A stretch of DNA of 64,000 bases, from IMG/VR virus record IMGVR_UViG_3300023180_000018. One strand, 5' to 3'. The stretch is from a virus. The translations under genes and the position numbers were made by a program. Shown here piece after piece: positions 5,612 to 38,952 of this stretch (position 1 is its first letter; each line of letters begins with the position of its first letter). Below the pieces are notes generated by a model. That model did no database searches. It saw only the letters and a program-made list of their open reading frames with translations, and was not told where the DNA came from.

Positions 5612-6385
5612 TTAACCTGCGCTATTTCTAGATTTTAAACATCTACCATTGTTAATTGGTAAATATTTTTCATTTATATCCATTTTTAATTTTAGAATCA
5701 TATCTGATTCTTTTTTTGCAATTTGTTCAATGTTTCTAATATATTTATAATTCAAATGATCTGTGTACTCTAATAAACGATTAAAATTATATGTCCATGC
5801 TTCTGCAACAGTACATCTTCCAGTTTTTACAAATTTTCTATAATCATGACATACAGCACTTAATCCCTTTACGCCATAATTTAAACAGTTCTTAGCATCA
5901 AACGCATGATCTATTAAAGGATCTTCTTTATGTAAATAGTTTATTGGCATATCTGTTACTGCCACTTTACTTAAAAATCCGGAATCTTGTTCAGGAATAT
6001 AATTAAATAAGAATGGATTTAATATAAAAAATGATAAATCTGCTATTCCAGGATTTGCTTTTATTCTTAAATTATTATAATAACTTGCAAGATTTGAATC
6101 TTTTGAAAAAGTATATCTTTTATTTTTATAAAACGCAAAATTCGAATTGCAAATAGAATTATATTGTAAATTAATTAAATTTAGATCGCATATAATTCCA
6201 CTGGCCAAGGCAATAGTTGGTCTTGTACAATTTTTTAATACAGTATTAACTTTTTTATTATTTTCACATTGAATAATTGACCATTTCCAATCTGGAGTAT
6301 TTTTTTTCAAAGAATTAATAGTTAAAGGTAAAAGATCATTATCATTATTTAATATGATAACATCAAATTTTTGAATGTTGCTCAT
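5612..6385 (-). CDS. Hypothetical protein, possible glycosyltransferase-related fold
   Basis: Likely start MSNIQKF at 6385, overlapping the upstream gene; beta-alpha start VIIL...LTINSLKKN resembles GT-A enzymes but no clear DxD. Confidence 0.45.
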   Translation of the reverse strand: MSNIQKFDVIILNNDNDLLPLTINSLKKNTPDWKWSIIQCENNKKVNTVLKNCTRPTIALASGIICDLNLINLQYNSICNSNFAFYKNKRYTFSKDSNLASYYNNLRIKANPGIADLSFFILNPFLFNYIPEQDSGFLSKVAVTDMPINYLHKEDPLIDHAFDAKNCLNYGVKGLSAVCHDYRKFVKTGRCTVAEAWTYNFNRLLEYTDHLNYKYIRNIEQIAKKESDMILKLKMDINEKYLPINNGRCLKSRNSAG

Positions 6386-7274
6386 GTTCAAATTTATCCT
6401 CAAAATATTTAAAATAATTATAAATTCTTTCTTCTTGATTTTTACTATCAACTGAAATCAATCCGTTAAAATTACAAGAAAATATTGATTTCAAATCTTG
6501 TTGTATTTCTTTTTTCATTTCGTTTGGATTTTTTTTATCAAAATATATATGCTTATAAAAATTGGAATAAGTATATGATCCACGTTCTTTTCCAACGTAT
6601 GCTGTATCTAACCCTTTAATAAAGGCGATAAGGCCCATTTCAGTATTTTCACAAAATCCAACTTTATTACAATTAGCAAGAATTTCATGTCCGGACAATT
6701 CTTTATTGATAATGTTATTTTTTCCAAATTTATACTGTAGATGAGATAACATAGATTCAGGTGTTATAGGATGACACTTTATTTTAGCATTTTCACTTTT
6801 TATTAATTGCGTTATTTTATCTTCATCTACAATTTTATTGTAAATATTGTTGCCGGGTAAAAATATAACAAAATCGTTATAATCTTTATTTCGCGTAGGT
6901 CTCAATGAATATTTGTCGACATGTTTCTCATATAAAATGTTGAAAATATTTTCACCATCTTCATTAATTTTTGTCTTTTTACTTTCTTTAATTATTTCAG
7001 AATTTCTTAATCTAGATGAACATCTAATATATACAAATTTACCTAAACAATCTGTATAAAAATATCCAGAAATTTTATTATCATTTCGAGAGGAATAAGA
7101 AACATCATATTCTAATTTCGTTTTTCTTTCTTCAATTTCTTTAAATGGTAATTTTTCTCGTAATTTTGTTAATTCAACGTCATTACTAACAGATCTTAAC
7201 GCGGTACCAGATTTAAAAAAATGTGCAGATATATTTCCTAAATTGTCATCACTCGCTAGAAATTTTAGTGGCAT
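6363..7274 (-). CDS. Capsule-synthesis (KpsS/KpsC-like) glycosyltransferase-like protein
   Basis: FVIFLP...KIKCHP...HEILANCNKV...NTEMGLIAFIKG resembles the KxHP...LL...V...NSTxGLEAL..G pattern of KpsS/KpsC-type GT-B domains. Confidence 0.55.
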   Translation of the reverse strand: MPLKFLASDDNLGNISAHFFKSGTALRSVSNDVELTKLREKLPFKEIEERKTKLEYDVSYSSRNDNKISGYFYTDCLGKFVYIRCSSRLRNSEIIKESKKTKINEDGENIFNILYEKHVDKYSLRPTRNKDYNDFVIFLPGNNIYNKIVDEDKITQLIKSENAKIKCHPITPESMLSHLQYKFGKNNIINKELSGHEILANCNKVGFCENTEMGLIAFIKGLDTAYVGKERGSYTYSNFYKHIYFDKKNPNEMKKEIQQDLKSIFSCNFNGLISVDSKNQEERIYNYFKYFEDKFEHEQHSKI

Positions 7275-7430: not shown

Positions 7431-10232
7431 TTATAGTGTCCAAGTATTACCATCCCAAGTCTGAGGAATTAATGTATCTAACGTTGTATCGTATACTGTT
7501 AACGTAGTTCTATTAGTATCTATATCAGTATTATAACCAGTATCAAATACCGTTAACGTAGCTCTAGTAGTAATTCTGTCTGTATCATATCCAGTATCAA
7601 ACGCTGTTAACGTAGTTCTAGTAGTATCTATATCAGTATTATAACCAGTATCAAATGCGGTCAGCGTAGTTCTAGTAGTATCTATATCAGTATTATAACC
7701 AGTATCAAACGCTGTTAATGTAACTCTATCAGTGTCTCTATCAGTTGATACTGCGGTATTGAATGCCGATTCATACGCTGTTACAGTAGTTCTATCCGTA
7801 TTTTTGCCAGTATCAAATGCAGTTAACGTAGTTCTAGTAGTATCAATTGTCGTATTTTGACCAGTATCAAATGCCGTTAACGTAGTTCTATCCGTATTTT
7901 TGCCAGTATCAAATACCGTTAACGTAGTTCTAGTAGTAGCAATATTAGTACCAAATACTGAATCATACGCTGTTACAGTAGTTCTATTGGTTGCTATTGC
8001 AGTATTAAATGCTGATTCATACGCTGTTACAGTTTGTCTATCAGTATTATAACCAGTATCAAATACCGTTAACGTAGTTCTACTAGTTCCTATTGCCGTA
8101 TTGAATCCTGATTCATACGCTGTTACAGTAGTTCTATCCGTATTTTGTCCAGTCTCAAACACTGTTAATGTTTCTATGTTTGTTTCTACTGCAGTATTAA
8201 ACGCTGATTCATACGCTGTTACAGTAGTTCTATCCGTATTTTTTCCAGTCTCAAACACTGTTAATGTAATTACATTGGTTTCTACTGCGGTATTAAACGC
8301 TGAATCGTATGCTGTAATCGTATCTCTATTCGTATTTCTTAGAGTCTCAAATGCAGTTAACGTAGTTCTAGTAGTATCTTTGGTCGTATTGGCGCCAGTA
8401 TCAAATACCGTTAGTGTAGTTTTAGTAGTACTAATATTAGTACCAAATCCTGATTCATATGCTGTAACTGTATTTCTATTAGTTCCTACTGCGGTATTAA
8501 ATGATGATTCATATGCTGTAACTGTATTTCTATTAGTTGATACTGCGGTATTAAATGCTGATTCATACGCGGTAACTGTAGCTTTATTAGTTTCTACTGC
8601 GGTATTGAATGACGAATCATACGCCGTAACAGTTGATCTATTAGTTGAGACAGAGGATGTGGCCCTATTGATCTGAAATGACCCGCCACCAAATTTATCA
8701 GATTGAATTAACGGTCCTTTGTAATAAGTAAATCCATCAGGATGCGCATAGCCGCTCAGGATCAGTGGGCCACTGTATTTTTGTACCGATGCCCAGATAA
8801 CAGAGGTGGTCGCAGTACCTGATTGGGCCCAAACATACGAGCCGGCGACTATCGTATTTGGTCCTTGCGCGCCTGTAGTATTAAATACCGTCAATGTAGC
8901 TCTAGTAGTAGCAATATTAGTATTTTGTCCAGTCTCAAACACTGTTAATGTAGATCTAGTAGTACTAATATTAGTATTCAAACCCGTCTCAAACGCTGTA
9001 AGTGTAGTTTTAGTAGTATCTTTGGTCGTATTGGCGCCAGTATCAAATACCGTTAGTGTAGTTCTAGTAGTATTGATATTAGTATTAAACGCTGATTCAT
9101 ACGCGGTAACTGTAGCTCTATTAGTTCCTACTGCGGTATTAAATGCCGATTCATATGCTGTAATCGTATCTTTATTCGTATCTCTTAGAGTCTCAAACGC
9201 TGTAAGTGTAGTTCTAGTAGTAGCAATATTAGTATCTTGACCAGTCTCAAACACCGTTAATGTTTCTATGTTTGTTTCTACTGCAGTATTAAACGCTGTA
9301 ATAGTATTTTTAGTAGTATCTTTGGTCGTATTTTGTCCAGTCTCAAACACTGTTAATGTAATTATATTGGTTTCTACTGCGGTATTGAATGCTGTAATAG
9401 TATTTTTAGTAGTATCAATATTAGTATCTTTACCAGTATCAAATGCTGTAATCGTATCTTTATTGGTTGCTACTGCAGTGTTGAATGCTGTAATAGTAGA
9501 TTTAGTAGTATCAATTGTCGTATCTTGACCAGTATTAAACACCGTTAGTGTAGTTTTAGTAGTAGCAATATTAGTATTAAACGCTGAATCGTATGCTGTA
9601 ATCGTATTTTTGTTGGTTTCTACTGCAGTGTTGAATGCTGTAATCGTATTTCTGTTGGTTTCTATTGCAGTATTGAATGCCGATTCATATGCTGTAATCG
9701 TATCACGATTAGTTTCTACTGCAGTATTAAACGCTGTAACCGTATCTCTAGTAGTATCAATTGTCGTATCTTGACCAGTATCAAACACCGTATTAAAAGC
9801 AGTAATCGTATCACGATTAGTTTCTACTGCAGTATTGAATGCTGAAACAAAAGCAGTAACCGTATTACGATTAGTTTCTACTGCAGTATTGAATGCTGAA
9901 ACAAAAGCAGTAACCGTATTACGATTAGTTTCTACTGCAGTATCAAACGCGGTAATAAATGCAGTTACTGTAGCTTTATTGGTTGCTACTGCGGTATTAA
10001 ATGCTGATACGAAAGCAGTAAGAGTAGTACGATTCGTATTGAATGTAGTAAGGAATAATGTATCAATTGTAGCATTATAAAAATCACCTAAAGAAATAGC
10101 GCCAGTAGGTTTAGCTGGATCTGGAAATTGTCGTACATAATTAATGTTTAGACTGATACTACTATTGCTAGTATTACCCATCTCGACATTAATGTCAGAC
10201 ATTGATATTGGGCCTGAACCTTGTAGCGCCAT
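7431..10232 (-). CDS. Thr-rich repeat fibre/adhesin with two mirror-complementary arms and a central tip domain
   Basis: N-terminal MALQGSGPISMSDINVEMG...GAISLGDFYN fibre-attachment-like motif; 22+22 repeat units of 14/18/22 aa flanking an 88-aa central segment. Confidence 0.8.
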   Translation of the reverse strand: MALQGSGPISMSDINVEMGNTSNSSISLNINYVRQFPDPAKPTGAISLGDFYNATIDTLFLTTFNTNRTTLTAFVSAFNTAVATNKATVTAFITAFDTAVETNRNTVTAFVSAFNTAVETNRNTVTAFVSAFNTAVETNRDTITAFNTVFDTGQDTTIDTTRDTVTAFNTAVETNRDTITAYESAFNTAIETNRNTITAFNTAVETNKNTITAYDSAFNTNIATTKTTLTVFNTGQDTTIDTTKSTITAFNTAVATNKDTITAFDTGKDTNIDTTKNTITAFNTAVETNIITLTVFETGQNTTKDTTKNTITAFNTAVETNIETLTVFETGQDTNIATTRTTLTAFETLRDTNKDTITAYESAFNTAVGTNRATVTAYESAFNTNINTTRTTLTVFDTGANTTKDTTKTTLTAFETGLNTNISTTRSTLTVFETGQNTNIATTRATLTVFNTTGAQGPNTIVAGSYVWAQSGTATTSVIWASVQKYSGPLILSGYAHPDGFTYYKGPLIQSDKFGGGSFQINRATSSVSTNRSTVTAYDSSFNTAVETNKATVTAYESAFNTAVSTNRNTVTAYESSFNTAVGTNRNTVTAYESGFGTNISTTKTTLTVFDTGANTTKDTTRTTLTAFETLRNTNRDTITAYDSAFNTAVETNVITLTVFETGKNTDRTTVTAYESAFNTAVETNIETLTVFETGQNTDRTTVTAYESGFNTAIGTSRTTLTVFDTGYNTDRQTVTAYESAFNTAIATNRTTVTAYDSVFGTNIATTRTTLTVFDTGKNTDRTTLTAFDTGQNTTIDTTRTTLTAFDTGKNTDRTTVTAYESAFNTAVSTDRDTDRVTLTAFDTGYNTDIDTTRTTLTAFDTGYNTDIDTTRTTLTAFDTGYDTDRITTRATLTVFDTGYNTDIDTNRTTLTVYDTTLDTLIPQTWDGNTWTL
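7506..8633 (-). repeat. C-terminal repeat arm (22 units, 376 aa, residues 534-909)
   Basis: Units start T[LVI]T[AV][FY]; 42/54/66-bp imperfect tandem repeats. Confidence 0.95.
8898..10025 (-). repeat. N-terminal repeat arm (22 units, 376 aa, residues 70-445)
   Basis: Same unit grammar; unit lengths are the exact reverse of the other arm. Confidence 0.95.
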
Positions 10233-10251: not shown

Positions 10252-10791
10252 TTAACTATTTATAGTTTTAAGTTCATCTATTTGTTTTTGTTGTTCTTTG
10301 ACAACTTCAATGAGCAAAGCTACTATTCTGTCATATTTTACGGCTAATAATCCATTTTCTCTTTCTGCTACAAGTTCAGGTAAAACATTTTGTAATTCTT
10401 GTGCAATAACTCCTACATCTGCTTTTCTAATATTATAATCATCAACTCCGCCTACACTTTCTAAATGGGCATCAGTCCAATCAAAGTTATATCCATTTAA
10501 AGCTTTTACTTTTTCAATAGGATTTTCAATATTTCTTACATTTTCTTTTAACCTAGAATCAGATGAATAAAACGCAGTTATATCGCCTGTTGCAGTAATA
10601 TTGCCAGTAACTGAAATTCCTGCAGAAAAAGTCATCGCACCTGCGGCGGTATCTGCAACATCACTTCTCAAAAAGTTTGCGCCTTCAATTCCATCCACCG
10701 TATCTGCATTTAATCCAGACCCAGGCCCATCATTACCGGCGTGCCAAACAAGTGAACCACCTATAGTTGTTCCTGTTCTAAGTTTCGACAT
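10252..10791 (-). CDS. Short fibre adaptor with intramolecular chaperone (peptidase S74) domain
   Basis: GDITAFYSSDSRLKENV...GVIAQEL...PELV...VKYDRIVALLIEVVKEQQKQI. Confidence 0.88.
   Translation of the reverse strand: MSKLRTGTTIGGSLVWHAGNDGPGSGLNADTVDGIEGANFLRSDVADTAAGAMTFSAGISVTGNITATGDITAFYSSDSRLKENVRNIENPIEKVKALNGYNFDWTDAHLESVGGVDDYNIRKADVGVIAQELQNVLPELVAERENGLLAVKYDRIVALLIEVVKEQQKQIDELKTINS
10257..10264 (-). promoter_or_regulatory. Late promoter TATAAATA for the Thr-repeat gene
   Basis: Exact consensus 25 bp upstream of ATG 10232. Confidence 0.75.
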
Positions 10792-16677: not shown

Positions 16678-16685
16678 TATTTATA
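16678..16685 (-). promoter_or_regulatory. Late promoter TATAAATA
   Basis: Exact consensus upstream of the 1392-aa fibre gene. Confidence 0.7.
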
Positions 16686-17307
16686 CAAACTTTGGCCCGT
16701 AAACCCACCAAACAATTGACTTTCTTAGTCCAGTTTTTACTCTACCAACTCGATGTAAAGTCCAGGAAGGAAATGCAATTAAAGTATTTCTTTTTTGTTC
16801 TAACGTAGTTAGTACACCAGAATCCATTATTTGGAATTTTCCACCTTTATATTCTTCTGGATCTGATAGAATTAAACTAAAACTTAATTTTCTATGCATT
16901 GCAGAATTCATTTCTAAATTTGTATTTAAATCTGAAAATTTATCACAATGTAAAGAATAGTGTTGACCTTTATAATACGATGTCAATTGTATAAAATTAA
17001 AACCAGTTAGATTAAATCCAAAATAAGCATCATTGATACTTTCTGTTAATGTATAGAGAGAATGGAACGCAGCAATAGATAATTCATTTGTATCATCGTA
17101 GTTATAAAAACTTAAATTAGAAGATCTAATTTTTGAGTCTTTTATTCCATCACTACTGTCGATACCATCTTTTCTTATTGCTTGAGGATCTGTTGAATTA
17201 AAATATTCTTCTAAAATATTTAATTCGTCTTCTGGCATAGCATTTTCAAAAATTAAATAATCTTCTTGACATAATAATTTTTTTTCTGGATAGGGCGTTA
17301 ATGGCAT
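16681..17307 (-). CDS. 2OG-Fe(II) oxygenase (prolyl-4-hydroxylase-like)
   Basis: Y.LHCD, RKLSFSLILSDPEEYKGG, FPSWTLHRV, RKSIVWWVYGP. Confidence 0.92.
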   Translation of the reverse strand: MPLTPYPEKKLLCQEDYLIFENAMPEDELNILEEYFNSTDPQAIRKDGIDSSDGIKDSKIRSSNLSFYNYDDTNELSIAAFHSLYTLTESINDAYFGFNLTGFNFIQLTSYYKGQHYSLHCDKFSDLNTNLEMNSAMHRKLSFSLILSDPEEYKGGKFQIMDSGVLTTLEQKRNTLIAFPSWTLHRVGRVKTGLRKSIVWWVYGPKFV

Positions 17308-17335: not shown

Positions 17336-18280
17336 TTATGTATTTTTTAAAGCATCTATTTCGGCTTTGAGTGCTTTGCACACTGATATTAAAAACGCAG
17401 ATAGTTTTTGATAATCTACAGCTTTAAATCCATTTTCACGAGTTTCAACTAATGTAGGTTGTATTTCTTCAATTTCTTGTGCAATTACACCAATAGCGTG
17501 ACCGGTTTGTTGATGAATATCTGGAAAAGGAATCCAATCATATTCATATCCATTTATTTGATCTAACTTAGATAAAGCATCAGTGATAGGAGTAATATTT
17601 TCTTTTAATCTTTGATCCGAAGAAGCAAACGCTGTAACATCACCGGTACAAGAAAGTGCACCTACGATTCTACTATTTCCATTAACATGTAAAGCATATG
17701 CGCCGGGAGCAGTATTAACGCCTACTCTAGTTGCAGTTGTATCAACGTGTAAAATTGGAGTTGCAACAGCACCAAATACTGTATTTCCACCAGTAACATT
17801 AAGTACTTCATCTGCAGAAAGATATTTAAAAACTACGTCTGAACCAGTTCCAAAGTTGATAGCTTGATCGTCAACTAAAGTAACACTACCTTTTCTCATA
17901 CGAACATTTGCAGCTATATGATTTTCAGGATCAGGATCAGAAACATCACCAAAACTCAATGTTTTTTCTGCGGTACCAAAATATTCATCATCTTCATCTG
18001 AGCGTAAAAACTGGCTTGAAGATAAACCTCCGACTGCAGATCCATTTACATTAGTTAATTGAGAACCATTTCCAAAGAAATACGGCGCTACAACATTTGC
18101 AGCAGCTTCAATAGCATTTTGTGTATTTCCACTGTGTGATTGCCCAATCGACATTACGCCATTAGTACCATCAACATAAAATTTATTAGTGTTTACTGTA
18201 ATATTAGCATCACCTATAACGACGTCGCCGTCTGTAGTTAAGCCTTCTAATACTTCAAATTTTATTGCTTGATTTGCCAT
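17336..18280 (-). CDS. Tail fibre protein with S74 chaperone domain
   Basis: GDVTAFASSDQRLKENI...GVIAQEIE...VDYQKL. Confidence 0.88.
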   Translation of the reverse strand: MANQAIKFEVLEGLTTDGDVVIGDANITVNTNKFYVDGTNGVMSIGQSHSGNTQNAIEAAANVVAPYFFGNGSQLTNVNGSAVGGLSSSQFLRSDEDDEYFGTAEKTLSFGDVSDPDPENHIAANVRMRKGSVTLVDDQAINFGTGSDVVFKYLSADEVLNVTGGNTVFGAVATPILHVDTTATRVGVNTAPGAYALHVNGNSRIVGALSCTGDVTAFASSDQRLKENITPITDALSKLDQINGYEYDWIPFPDIHQQTGHAIGVIAQEIEEIQPTLVETRENGFKAVDYQKLSAFLISVCKALKAEIDALKNT

Positions 18281-36129: not shown

Positions 36130-38952
36130 CTAAGCGTTAGAAATAACATGCGGATAAGTTACGAAATCGTCAGCGTCAATGAATGTGTATTGTTGCTCAA
36201 GAATCTGATTACGAACTGTCGGTGAGAAGAATACATCTTCGTCCTCGAATATAACATCTTGCGATGCACTAATAATAATAGTTGGAGAATAGAAAATATT
36301 CTCATTCAACAACGCAACAGTAGATTTCAATTCAAAATCAATAGATTCAGATGAAGATAGAATATCTAATTTTACGTCAGTGGTAGCTAAATAACCGCCA
36401 AACGGTTTGGTTCCAGCAACATGTAATACTTTAATTAAAGTATCTTTATAAGCATCGAAAGGCAACGCCGTTAATACTTTATAAGAATATTCTTGATAAA
36501 AATCGTTATCTTGAAGATATTTATCTGAAGATAAAAATGATCTTCTATTAGTATGATATCCTATTCCAACACCTTGTTTGCCTAGATATCCAGTAACTGA
36601 AATAGTTTTACTGGAATCATCTGATGATACTAATGTCAAATCTTCTTCTTCAAAATATCCAAATCCAGAATCTACTACTTCAACTGCGGTAGCAAATCCA
36701 TCACCAGTAAAAGCTTCAGATTTTACTATAGCGTTTAAACCAGTTCTTTGTTCTCTTCTTTCAACATAAGTACCATTATAATATTCTGGCGGGCCTTCTA
36801 TAATAGTTGCAGAAAAATTAGTATCTTCTGAAGTTACAATTTCACCCGGAATAAAATTGTTGTCTAAATCTAATCTAGTAATTTTTAACGTTAAATTTTC
36901 TCTATCATGCACTCGCAACCTTCCACGAGTACCAGAAGTCTGTCCAATCAATGCTTCACCAATATTAAAATTAAGACCTTGTGTAGATCCGGGTGGCAAT
37001 TCGTATTCTGCAAAAAAATCGTATTTTTCTATATGGTACATTCTTGGTTCATATATAATAAAAAATGGATCTGCTGCATAACCTCGACCAGGATTTCTAC
37101 TTACTATTCCTTCTATGGAACCAATAGTAATATCTTCCCAAGGGCCAAGAGTTTGCACTAAAGTATCGTTAAATCCTCTATCAAAGTTATTATTAACTTG
37201 GTATAAGTTAGAACCAATAATAGTACTTTCTGGGATTGCACTGATTAACGTATCATTAAAAGATTCTGGTATAATAACTTCTTCATTATACCCTACGATT
37301 TCAAAATTAGCTTCGGTTTCAAAGCCGGATATTGTTGTAATATTAAATGATGTTTCTACTGGATTACCTAATGCGTCTTGAACATAACAAGAACCATTAT
37401 AAAAGGTATTAACAATATTAATTATTCCTAGATTAGTGTTTGAAAAATTACCAGCACCAATAGCGGGAAAACTTACACCATCTCGTTCTCTTTCTAAAGG
37501 ATAATCTGTTCTAATACAACCAACACCATAAACTATATCAGCATAACTTTCACCGAGTTCAATATTTGAATATGCTTTTGAAACAGTACAATTAGCAAAT
37601 AATTTTCTGTAATTCCCACCAGCATCGGTATTAATTGTATAGTATTGTTCTAAAATATCTCCAGCATTTAATACACCCCCAGAAGAATCATATGTAATTG
37701 TTGCTGTATTAGAATATCCTATTACATTAGCAGACGCAGATACGCTAGTAGAACTTACTACATTAGAAACAAACGTATTACCAGTTAAATATATTTCATC
37801 TCCCAAATTACCAGCAGAATATGTATTAGAACTATAATTTACTACAATAGTTCCTTCAGTATCTCCAGCTTCATATGTAGAGCTTACAATAGTTCCAGTA
37901 AAAGTTATATTATTACCAACGTCATATGAAGTTACAGTTTCACCTATACTAAACTCTTCTGGATCTGCTACAGTAGCATCATAATCAACTGATAATAAAT
38001 CTTGCTTTACATTTTCAAATTGCATTACCGGGGTTCTTCTATATAAGAAGTCATTTCCGTCTGGATAAAAAGATCCAGTTACGCCTTCAATAGTATAATC
38101 TCTAGTAATTAAAACACGATCCGAACCTATAATTTCAGCGTTAGCTGTGTATCCCCACCCACCATCTAATAGTTCAAAATCGATTACACCAACATAACTA
38201 GTAACGTCAGTAATTCTTCCAATACCTTTTTTCCCAGCACCATCTTCAACATAAGTAGTTTCTCCTAATTCAAATCCAGAATCACTACGATTAATACTAA
38301 ACTTACTTAATGATCCTACAATTTTAGTAGTAACATTTGTGTCTTTAAATAATGTTGAAACTTGCTCGCCGGTTTTAAAATTTGTTTCTGTAACATTAGC
38401 TAAATATAAAACGCTAATAAATCTAGTATCTTTTTTTACTTTAACTAATCTTTCTACATAAGCTTCAGCACCAGTCTTATTACCTCTAATAATTTCACCA
38501 ACCATTTGAATATTTGTTGGTGATTCAACAACTTCTAAATATTGTACATCTACCCATTCATTATCTGATAATCTAAATAAATCATCTGAGGGGTAATATA
38601 CTTGTGCTTCTAATCCGTGTATTAATTTAAAAAACAAATCTATTGCACGCGGTGTACCTTTAGATCTATAAAAATCTAATGAATTTTTTATGAATAACTG
38701 TTTATTAGACGCAGTAGTAAACTGGATGTTAGAAAGATATTTTTGTTTAAAGAAAACTATAAAATCTTCAATAACTTTATCAATATCACGATAATCGGGT
38801 AATCTTCTAGCGTGATAATATATCTGATTTTCAGATTCTAACCACTCATAATATGCTTTTACAAATGAAATAAACATTTGTCCTTCTTCCCGATAAAATT
38901 CTGGGAATAGTCTTTCTGTAAAAGGACTTATGTATTTTTCTAGTTCTTTCAT
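36130..38952 (-). CDS. gp7: Baseplate wedge initiator
   Basis: FPEFYRE...FVKAYYEWLE, FYRSKGT, LQDNDFYQEYSY...LHVAGTK.FG; between gp6 and gp8. Confidence 0.85.
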   Translation of the reverse strand: MKELEKYISPFTERLFPEFYREEGQMFISFVKAYYEWLESENQIYYHARRLPDYRDIDKVIEDFIVFFKQKYLSNIQFTTASNKQLFIKNSLDFYRSKGTPRAIDLFFKLIHGLEAQVYYPSDDLFRLSDNEWVDVQYLEVVESPTNIQMVGEIIRGNKTGAEAYVERLVKVKKDTRFISVLYLANVTETNFKTGEQVSTLFKDTNVTTKIVGSLSKFSINRSDSGFELGETTYVEDGAGKKGIGRITDVTSYVGVIDFELLDGGWGYTANAEIIGSDRVLITRDYTIEGVTGSFYPDGNDFLYRRTPVMQFENVKQDLLSVDYDATVADPEEFSIGETVTSYDVGNNITFTGTIVSSTYEAGDTEGTIVVNYSSNTYSAGNLGDEIYLTGNTFVSNVVSSTSVSASANVIGYSNTATITYDSSGGVLNAGDILEQYYTINTDAGGNYRKLFANCTVSKAYSNIELGESYADIVYGVGCIRTDYPLERERDGVSFPAIGAGNFSNTNLGIINIVNTFYNGSCYVQDALGNPVETSFNITTISGFETEANFEIVGYNEEVIIPESFNDTLISAIPESTIIGSNLYQVNNNFDRGFNDTLVQTLGPWEDITIGSIEGIVSRNPGRGYAADPFFIIYEPRMYHIEKYDFFAEYELPPGSTQGLNFNIGEALIGQTSGTRGRLRVHDRENLTLKITRLDLDNNFIPGEIVTSEDTNFSATIIEGPPEYYNGTYVERREQRTGLNAIVKSEAFTGDGFATAVEVVDSGFGYFEEEDLTLVSSDDSSKTISVTGYLGKQGVGIGYHTNRRSFLSSDKYLQDNDFYQEYSYKVLTALPFDAYKDTLIKVLHVAGTKPFGGYLATTDVKLDILSSSESIDFELKSTVALLNENIFYSPTIIISASQDVIFEDEDVFFSPTVRNQILEQQYTFIDADDFVTYPHVISNA

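What the first reader, a model, noticed from the sequence alone, without database searches (positions are those of the whole stretch)
7431..10232. Protein 'stem-loop': two 376-aa Thr-rich arms with exactly mirrored unit lengths and a complementary pairing code
Seen in sequence: cutting the protein at each T[LVI]T[AV][FY] anchor gives 22 units before the central segment (aa 70-445) and 22 after it (aa 534-909), each arm 376 aa. N-arm lengths are 18,18,18,18,22,14,18,14,18,18,14,18,14,18,14,18,14,18,18,18,18,18; the C-arm is exactly the reverse. Mirror partners are complements, not copies. Type A (TVTAYESAFNTAVETNRN) always faces type B (TLTVFDTGQNTNIATTRT); short a (TITAFNTAVETNKN) faces short b (TLTVFETGKNTDRT); hybrids (TxTAYxSxFxTNIxTTxT) face hybrids; TLTAFETLRxTNxD faces itself; the lone 22-mers face each other. 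All 22 pairs comply. In 4-residue blocks the rules are aromatic block ([T/S]x[F/Y]x) opposite Tx[R/K/I/V]x, and TA[V/I]x opposite TGxx (TAVG faces TGAN both times it occurs). All unit lengths are 4n+2, which keeps the anchor threonines on one face of a beta-strand. The DNA is not an inverted repeat, so the symmetry is selected at protein level. Inference: the chain runs out and back as a very long antiparallel beta-ribbon (about 120 nm if fully extended at about 0.33 nm per residue). Cross-strand cation-pi and knob-into-hole pairs and an aperiodic length barcode would fix the register. I know of no description of a phage fibre with such a base-pair-like code.
Basis: partly seen in the sequence, partly recalled or inferred. 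Interest (0 to 1): 0.95.

Follow-up and report, generated by a model that had tools for sequence, protein, structure and literature searches.

The report
Mirror-coded fold-back phage fibre protein
A 933-residue fibre protein of a T4-like phage has two 390-residue threonine-rich halves that match each other in reverse order, residue by residue, under a pairing rule, so the chain almost certainly folds back on itself into a very long two-stranded beta ribbon, a design I found described in no paper.

Summary
ORF 7431-10232 (minus strand, 933 aa) has 23 TxT anchors in each half. The 22 unit lengths of the N arm are the exact reverse of those of the C arm (1 in 2.6 million given the composition).

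Every anchor pairs at i+j=982. Thr faces Thr, and an aromatic residue faces Arg/Lys/Ile/Val in 71 of 86 positions, never another aromatic. A-type half-blocks face B-type in 21-22 of 22 pairs (0 of 200,000 shuffles reach this).

Nineteen gp7-type baseplate proteins, including cultured Stenotrophomonas phage DLP_6, and six IMG/VR fibre proteins each carry their own barcode mirrored in their own C arm. They show compensated indels (+10/+10, -4/-4, -14/-14) and two-sided aromatic swaps.

Structure prediction was weak. A low-confidence AlphaFold model is all-beta and mirrors at exactly the predicted register.

Best reading: a fold-back antiparallel beta ribbon about 130 nm long with a foreign-looking 75-aa tip domain. 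Oligomeric state is open; T4 gp7 is a monomer.

The closest known structure is the T4 gp37 needle, which shares only the topology. This scan has flagged the same class on other phage DNA before.

The parts
7431..10232 (-). Whole gene, 933 aa fibre protein (28% Thr, 1 His, no Cys)
10062..10232 (-). aa 1-57: N-terminal module (two G-x-I-S-[LM]-x-D-[IF] motifs) shared with many small phage proteins that have unrelated C-terminal parts. Presumed virion-attachment adaptor (inferred).
8868..10061 (-). aa 58-455: N arm (outward strand). Period-4 Thr lattice with 23 TxT slips.
8655..8867 (-). aa 456-526: non-repetitive Gly/aromatic-rich tip domain at the symmetry axis. GC3 is 0.42 against 0.17-0.19 in the arms. 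Presumed distal receptor-binding head (inferred).
7461..8654 (-). aa 527-924: C arm (return strand), the mirror complement of the N arm at i+j=982
7431..7460 (-). aa 925-933 plus stop: short C-terminal tail after the Ile-Pro that ends the stem. It returns the chain to the N-terminal module.
   Evidence: an analogous IP landmark closes the long upper stem, above the CBM-like insert, in gp7-type relatives

Best explanation
The protein is a virion fibre made of one long intrachain hairpin.

Residues 1-57 attach it to the particle. Residues 58-455 run outward as a beta strand. A 75-residue globular tip (aa 454-528) reverses the chain. Residues 527-924 run back alongside the first strand, antiparallel, with residue i next to residue 982-i.

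One face of the ribbon carries the code. Thr:Thr pairs alternate with pairs of one aromatic and one Arg/Lys/Ile/Val. Every 14, 18 or 22 residues a TxT:TxT double pair slips the lattice by two residues. The aperiodic order of these slips allows only one register.

The other face is small and polar (Asn, Ala, Asp, Gly), with a Leu/Val/Ile pair at each anchor.

If the stem is straight it is about 130 nm long (392 paired residues at 0.33 nm each). The tip is the likely receptor-binding part.

Shown: the mirror register, the pairing rule, and their conservation and compensation in relatives. Inferred: beta conformation, length, function of the tip and of the N-terminal module, and the number of chains per fibre. 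I lean towards a single-chain ribbon that may or may not bundle.
For: - Exact mirror barcode: 23 of 23 slips at S=982.
- A/B half-block complementarity beyond 200,000 shuffles.
- Exactly one aromatic in 71 of 86 pairs, none with two.
- No DNA inverted repeat, and the N-arm barcode is not itself palindromic, so neither inverted nor direct duplication explains the global mirror.
- In gp7-type relatives the Thr-mirror peak equals the sum of two conserved proline landmarks exactly in 14 of 18 and within 1 in the other 4. The landmark-to-landmark span of the hairpin varies from 496 to 653 residues.
- Slips called independently in each arm are mirrored 7-17 per protein, about twice the count at any other register.
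- A MAFFT alignment made without knowledge of the mirror shows +10/+10, -4/-4 and -14/-14 indels at mirror positions.
- 16 of 48 mirrored column pairs show aromatic swaps on both sides, against 1-9 in slid controls. 82% of cells hold one aromatic, against 41-52% in controls.
- A third family from IMG/VR obeys the one-aromatic rule in 90-99% of about 100 pairs each.
- AlphaFold2 with the 18-sequence alignment gives an all-beta model with strands up to 56 residues. Its strand map and pLDDT profile mirror best at exactly the sequence-derived register (r=0.90; 0.5 at +/-10; about 0 at +/-20). Confidence is low, pLDDT 41.5.
- The gene lies in the baseplate/fibre module of a T4-like myovirus.
Against: There is no confident 3D model. 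The single-sequence AlphaFold2 model has pLDDT 37 and a junk helical N arm. The alignment-based model is also below pLDDT 50 for most residues.

No close homologue of this protein itself was found, so compensation is shown in related families, not in its own lineage.

Similarity to those families may partly be compositional.

A free two-stranded ribbon over 100 nm long has no structural precedent. One face carries many exposed aromatics, which argues for some further burial.
Confidence: 0.75

Rival explanations
1. Same fold-back chain, but three copies bundle into a six-stranded needle like the T4 gp37 tip. The Thr/aromatic face forms the core, and rings of three aromatics alternate with three Arg/Ile.
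For: Phage fibres are usually trimers (PMC3004832, Table 3). The gp37 needle is a trimer of out-and-back chains in which a Gly faces a Phe of the neighbouring chain (PMC6957217). The semi-hydrophobic Thr/aromatic face would be buried. The strict limit of one aromatic per pair would fit a crowded core.
Against: The same hairpin design is fused to gp7 in DLP_6-type phages. T4 gp7 is a monomer with 6 copies per tail (PMC3004832, Table 1). The Thr lattice encodes only one partner register; small shifts of +/-4 score far lower. There is 1 His and no HxH motif.
Confidence: 0.3
2. The mirror code is satisfied between chains. Two extended chains lie antiparallel, with the N arm of one on the C arm of the other, giving a fibre twice as long with attachment modules at both ends.
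For: Sequence alone cannot separate intrachain from interchain pairing at i+j=982.
Against: In the gp7-type relatives this would put a baseplate domain at each end. There the C-terminal 51 residues mirror the segment just after the baseplate domain, so the chain returns to its own start. The compact 75-aa central domain fits a turn.
Confidence: 0.07
3. The paired ribbon is not straight. It winds or folds into a compact, thicker body, for example one turn per 14/18-residue unit, so the fibre is far shorter than 130 nm.
For: Unit lengths of 14-18 are close to the coil lengths of beta-solenoids and to the helical repeat expected of a strongly twisted two-stranded ribbon (my own knowledge, not tested). 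Strands in the low-confidence model are broken at mirrored places.
Against: Neighbouring turns would have to stack units of unequal length (14 next to 18). Nothing in the sequence encodes a second register.
Confidence: 0.1
4. There is no inter-arm contact. The arms are independent local solenoids or a mucin-like glycosylated disordered stalk, and the mirror order is chance or a by-product of repeat evolution.
For: High Thr content. A neighbouring gene with a glycosyltransferase-like predicted fold.
Against: The barcode probability is 1 in 2.6 million. Complementarity lies beyond 200,000 shuffles. Compensated indels and two-sided swaps occur in two other families. Pro is only 1%. The lattice Thr are nearly the only invariant columns in the gp7-type alignment.
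Confidence: 0.03

Closest known systems
Needle domain of the T4 long tail fibre tip, gp37 residues ~811-1026 (PDB 2XGF; described in PMC6957217)
   Same: The chain runs out to a distal head and back, so that N- and C-terminal segments lie together at the base (domain D10 is residues 811-881 plus 1010-1026). It is a receptor-binding tip at the turn. A small residue faces an aromatic across strands (G921/F970).
   Different: The T4 arms are about 70 residues, not 390. The T4 needle is held by seven Fe ions on HxH motifs that interleave rather than mirror; this protein has 1 His. There is no sequence similarity. T4 has no Thr lattice, no slip barcode and no mirror complementarity. The T4 needle is a proven trimer; the state here is unknown.
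gp7-position baseplate wedge protein of Stenotrophomonas phage DLP_6 (AAY80_265, P0005) and 18 metagenomic relatives
   Same: Same grammar: a period-4 Thr lattice, TxT slips 14/18 apart, the one-aromatic rule and a central small tip, with each barcode mirrored in its own C arm. phmmer E-values to this protein range from about 2e-21 (P0001) to 4e-11 (P0005).
   Different: The hairpin is a C-terminal extension of a 520-aa gp7 domain (PF23786). That domain is 37-41% identical to this window's own gp7 at 36130-38952. The N arm is interrupted by a 135-aa globular insert. The arms are about 250 residues, and the units are less regular.
IMG/VR fibre proteins with 'NDNGTLR' N-termini (loci L002, L004, L014, L021; also L009, L019)
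   Same: Mirror peak z of 5.4-7.6. Exactly one aromatic in 90-99% of pairs. A small aromatic-rich tip at the axis.
   Different: 29-37% Thr, a different N-terminal module, and an extra code element (FYF faces GG). They are not detectably homologous by the searches run.
Repeat shafts of other viral fibres (adenovirus/reovirus triple beta-spiral, T4 gp5/gp12 triple beta-helix), from my own knowledge
   Same: Long thin beta-rich shafts built from short sequence repeats.
   Different: In those shafts three parallel chains run one way, and the repeats need no mirror partner within the chain.

Membership tests
T4 gp37-type fold-back needle (PDB 2XGF) | Out-and-back chain: the segments on either side of a distal head pair antiparallel | tested here: met
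   Shown by sequence covariation only, not by structure: mirror register i+j=982 with 23 of 23 slips, and compensated indels and swaps in relatives
T4 gp37-type fold-back needle (PDB 2XGF) | HxH motifs coordinating iron along the axis | tested here: not met
   1 His in 933 aa; T4 gp37 has 7 HxH motifs at 883-998
T4 gp37-type fold-back needle (PDB 2XGF) | Detectable sequence similarity to gp37 or lambda Stf tips | tested here: not met
   No PDB chain at E<=1; no Pfam or PHROG family
T4 gp37-type fold-back needle (PDB 2XGF) | Homotrimer | not testable with these tools
   No usable oligomer prediction was obtained; needs SEC-MALS or EM
gp7 baseplate wedge proteins (PF23786) with Thr-lattice extension | N-terminal gp7 domain and a gene position between gp6 and gp8 | tested here: not met
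   No PF23786 hit in this protein. The window's gp7 is a separate gene at 36130-38952.
gp7 baseplate wedge proteins (PF23786) with Thr-lattice extension | Mirror-coded Thr-lattice hairpin | tested here: met
Fibres with a C-terminal Peptidase_S74 intramolecular chaperone | S74 domain at the C-terminus | tested here: not met
   Absent here. It is present in the neighbouring genes 10252-10791 and 17336-18280.
Mucin-like O-glycosylated Ser/Thr stalk | Pro-rich, register-free low-complexity sequence | tested here: not met
   Pro 1%, strict period-4 lattice, mirror barcode

The most novel reading that the evidence does not exclude
A single polypeptide forms a two-stranded beta 'duplex' over 100 nm long. 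Its register is set digitally by a small alphabet of cross-strand pairs (Thr:Thr, aromatic:Arg/Lys/Ile/Val, bulky:Gly) plus an aperiodic slip barcode. The stem evolves like an RNA stem, by compensated indels and swaps. Unrelated phage lineages use this design on different attachment modules (gp7, the MALQ module, the NDNGTLR module). It would be a new, programmable class of protein fibre.
Probability: 0.45. Interest if true: 0.95.

Novelty: categorically new. Interest (0 to 1): 0.86.

Why it matters
If the reading holds, phages build receptor-reaching fibres from one chain that zips onto itself under simple pairing rules. That is a protein counterpart of a nucleic-acid stem.

It would explain a set of very Thr-rich 'hypothetical' giant proteins in marine and soil phage genomes. 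It would also give a sequence-only way to find their tips, the likely host-range determinants.

It would offer protein designers a natural register code for long beta ribbons.

The case is testable now. DLP_6 is a cultured phage that carries the design on its gp7.

Tried and rejected
- **ESMFold trimer of aa 342-637:** no verdict, pLDDT under 50. It gives no evidence either way.
- **AlphaFold2 of the full protein without an alignment:** pLDDT 37, N arm modelled as helices. Uninformative.
- **Foldseek of the alignment-based model against the PDB:** no match at E<=0.001. The weak rows are beta-barrel pore stems and outer-membrane barrels, which is meaningless at this confidence.
- **ESM Atlas look-alikes of the fibre:** none.
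- **Close relatives:** The search for homologous proteins on aa 1-75, the search for related loci in viral and metagenome contigs, a type-A motif DNA scan, and tblastn against GenBank phages found nothing close. The representative search gave mostly unrelated repeat proteins.
- **One-aromatic rule as proof of partner specificity in this protein:** rejected. The count does not change when units are shuffled.
- **Direct DNA duplication as the source of the mirror:** rejected. Only the block of units 18-20 / 26-28 is a self-complementary direct repeat (unit 20 vs 28 is 98% identical). The whole N-arm barcode is not palindromic.
- **Functional coupling to the downstream phrog_26179 gene:** not established. 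The gene is adjacent in 5 loci, but it also sits before gp13 in Caulobacter phage Cr30, which has no Thr-lattice protein nearby.
- **TxT antifreeze-type solenoid:** rejected, because it needs no mirror barcode.
- **Literature (8 full-text searches):** no description of such a code was found.
Full report
**1. The observation**

The ORF at 7431-10232 on the minus strand encodes 933 residues. It has 46 anchors of the form T[LVI]T[AV][FY]. Twenty-two units lie before a central 88-residue segment and 22 after it.

The two lists of unit lengths are exact reverses of each other. With 14 units of 18, seven of 14 and one of 22, there are 2,558,160 possible orders.

The repeats are a period-4 Thr lattice in which each TxT anchor is a 2-residue slip, hence lengths of 4n+2. 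I called slips independently in each arm from the local pattern alone. All 23 N-arm slips have a mirror partner at i+j=982, and the next best register gives 15. The lattice runs from T62:T920 to T453:S529.

**2. The code**

Folding the sequence at 982 puts Thr opposite Thr on one face. Between the Thr pairs lie 86 pairs. Of these, 71 hold exactly one aromatic and none hold two (14.6 expected). In 47 of them the partner is Arg or Lys.

That face is 51% Thr plus Phe, Tyr, Arg, Lys, Ile and Val. The other face is Asn, Ala, Asp, Thr, Glu and Gly, with a Leu/Val/Ile pair in each anchor.

Within this one protein the one-aromatic count is a property of the unit design, because position k faces position 22-k. 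It does not change when C-arm units of equal length are shuffled.

Partner specificity lies in the half-blocks. A-type halves (S-A, T-A-[VI]) always face B-type halves (T-G, T-[NTD]-x). Hybrids face hybrids, and the odd 14-mer faces itself. This holds for 21 of 22 pairs by strict automatic typing. The exception is a T-for-S variant of type A. The shuffle null has mean 10.9 and maximum 20 in 200,000 trials.

There is no inverted repeat in the DNA. The N-arm barcode is not itself palindromic, so a direct duplication cannot explain the global mirror. Only units 18-20 and 26-28 form a self-complementary direct repeat.

**3. Relatives and compensation**

The protein has no close homologue in the collections searched. 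The nearest hits are 1250-1420-aa proteins with a PF23786 baseplate-wedge domain. One is AAY80_265 of the cultured Stenotrophomonas phage DLP_6. It lies between gp6 and gp8, and the DLP6 paper lists it as gp7 (PMC5349666). Its first 520 residues are 37-41% identical to this window's own gp7.

All 19 Thr-rich members show a single sharp Thr-mirror peak. In 18 members with two conserved proline landmarks (K-E-L-P and I-P-T-T-F), the landmark positions sum to that peak exactly in 14 and within 1 in 4. The span between the landmarks varies from 496 to 653 residues.

Their barcodes differ from one another, and each is mirrored in its own C arm.

A MAFFT alignment made with no knowledge of the mirror keeps mirrored column pairs mirrored in each sequence's own numbering. 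It shows three compensated events at mirror positions:
- +10/+10 in five sequences;
- -4/-4 in one sequence;
- -14/-14 in two sequences.

Sixteen of 48 mirrored column pairs show aromatic/non-aromatic swaps on both sides, for example I:Y in some sequences and F:R in others. Slid controls give 1-9.

The 51 C-terminal residues mirror the segment just after the gp7 domain. A 135-aa globular domain is therefore an insert in the outward arm, and the chain ends where the hairpin began.

A degenerate DNA pattern for the B-type motif found a third group in IMG/VR, with 29-37% Thr and 'NDNGTLR' N-termini. Its mirror z-scores are 5.4-7.6. Exactly one aromatic occurs in 90-99% of about 100 pairs per protein. 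There is an extra rule in which F-Y-F faces G-G.

**4. Structure prediction**

Single-sequence AlphaFold2 of the whole protein was uninformative. With the 18-sequence alignment of the gp7-type hairpins, AlphaFold2 gave a low-confidence model (pLDDT 41.5) that is all-beta, with strands up to 56 residues.

However, the DSSP strand map mirrors best at exactly the sequence-derived register (551 in model numbering). The pLDDT profile correlates with its own mirror at r=0.90 there, 0.5 at +/-10 and about 0 at +/-20. This is weak but independent support for intrachain antiparallel pairing. Foldseek found nothing meaningful.

**5. Context and function**

The window is part of a 106-kb IMG/VR record of a T4-like myovirus. 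The order on the minus strand is:
- gp6, gp7, gp8;
- several giant structural proteins;
- fibre proteins with S74 chaperone domains;
- this gene;
- three unknown ORFs;
- gp13, gp14, gp15 and, further downstream, terminase.

The first 55 residues are a module found at the N-terminus of many small phage proteins with unrelated C-terminal parts. I read it as the attachment adaptor.

The 75-aa tip (aa 454-528) is non-repetitive and has GC3 of 0.42, against 0.17-0.19 in the arms and 0.13-0.19 in other genes. It looks like a recently acquired module and is the natural candidate for the receptor-binding head. These functional assignments are inferences.

**6. Comparison with what is known**

The closest solved structure is the T4 gp37 needle. 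Its D10 domain is built from residues 811-881 and 1010-1026, so the chain goes out and returns, and a Gly faces a Phe across strands (PMC6957217). Its arms are about 70 residues. It is held by seven iron ions on HxH motifs that do not mirror in sequence. It is also a trimer.

The protein here has one His, no similarity to any PDB chain, and a different logic. It works like a fold-back needle, but it is not a member of that family.

**7. Number of chains**

Fibres are usually trimers. However, the same design hangs on gp7, which is a monomer present six times per T4 tail (PMC3004832, Table 1). The lattice also encodes only one partner register.

I therefore lean to a single-chain ribbon, but a bundle is not excluded. 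The aromatic-bearing face argues for some burial. An interchain antiparallel dimer and a wound, shorter body are minor rivals.

**8. Novelty**

Eight full-text literature searches found no description of a mirror-complementary fibre code.

Earlier notes of this scan report the same kind of protein in other marine T4-like and jumbo phages. Those are unchecked AI notes and I did not use them as evidence. They do agree that this is a recurrent class.

New here are the link to the gp7-fused family in a cultured phage, explicit compensated indels and two-sided swaps in an unbiased alignment, the mirror in the AlphaFold confidence profile, and the foreign codon usage of the tip.

Noticed in passing
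window 8655-8882 (aa 451-526 of the fibre): The tip domain has GC3 of 0.42, against 0.17-0.19 in both arms and 0.13-0.19 in five other genes of the window, with many GCC/GGC/GCG codons. It looks recently acquired from a higher-GC source.
   Followed up: partly
window 6363-7274 (-), 303 aa: The gene just downstream (phrog_26179) has homologues directly downstream of the Thr-lattice fibre genes in L002, L004, L008 and L014. Its best GenBank phage hit is DLP_6. ESM Atlas structure look-alikes include KpsS/LipB Capsule_synth clusters (TM 0.69 and 0.63), though there is no sequence-family hit. In DLP_6 and Caulobacter phage Cr30 it sits just before gp13, and Cr30 has no Thr-lattice protein nearby. 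The link to the fibre may therefore be positional only.
   Followed up: partly
window 10062-10232 (aa 1-57): An N-terminal module with two G-x-I-S-[LM]-x-D-[IF] motifs is shared (40-54% identity) with at least 11 proteins of 91-413 aa. Their C-terminal parts are unrelated (Gly-rich, propeller-like and others). It is a likely common virion adaptor.
   Followed up: partly
P0005 (DLP_6 AAY80_265) residues 525-712 and 1238-1288: In gp7-type relatives a 135-aa globular domain with no Pfam hit is inserted in the outward arm. The last 51 residues mirror the 50 residues before the insert, so the stem continues past the insert.
   Followed up: yes
L002, L004, L014, L021 (IMG/VR loci): A more extreme family (up to 37% Thr, 1180-1320 aa) has the same mirror logic and an added rule: F-Y-F tracts face G-G tracts near the tip.
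   Followed up: partly
window 8320-8483 and 9014-9177 (units 26-28 and 18-20): A three-unit block (A, hybrid, B) occurs as a direct DNA repeat in both arms; unit 20 and unit 28 are 98% identical. The block is its own mirror complement, so a direct duplication yields a valid paired segment. This is a possible route for stem growth next to the tip.
   Followed up: partly
window 10252-10791 (-), 179 aa: A very short protein is mostly a Peptidase_S74 intramolecular-chaperone domain, directly upstream of the fibre gene. A second S74-bearing protein lies at 17336-18280, next to a 2OG-Fe(II) oxygenase gene at 16681-17307.
   Followed up: no
window 8101-8676, 8806-9240, 9268-9528, 9835-10080 (+): Four plus-strand ORFs of 81-191 aa lie inside the fibre gene. 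They are shadow frames of the repeats (Val/Ser/Asn-rich reverse reading), not genes.
   Followed up: no
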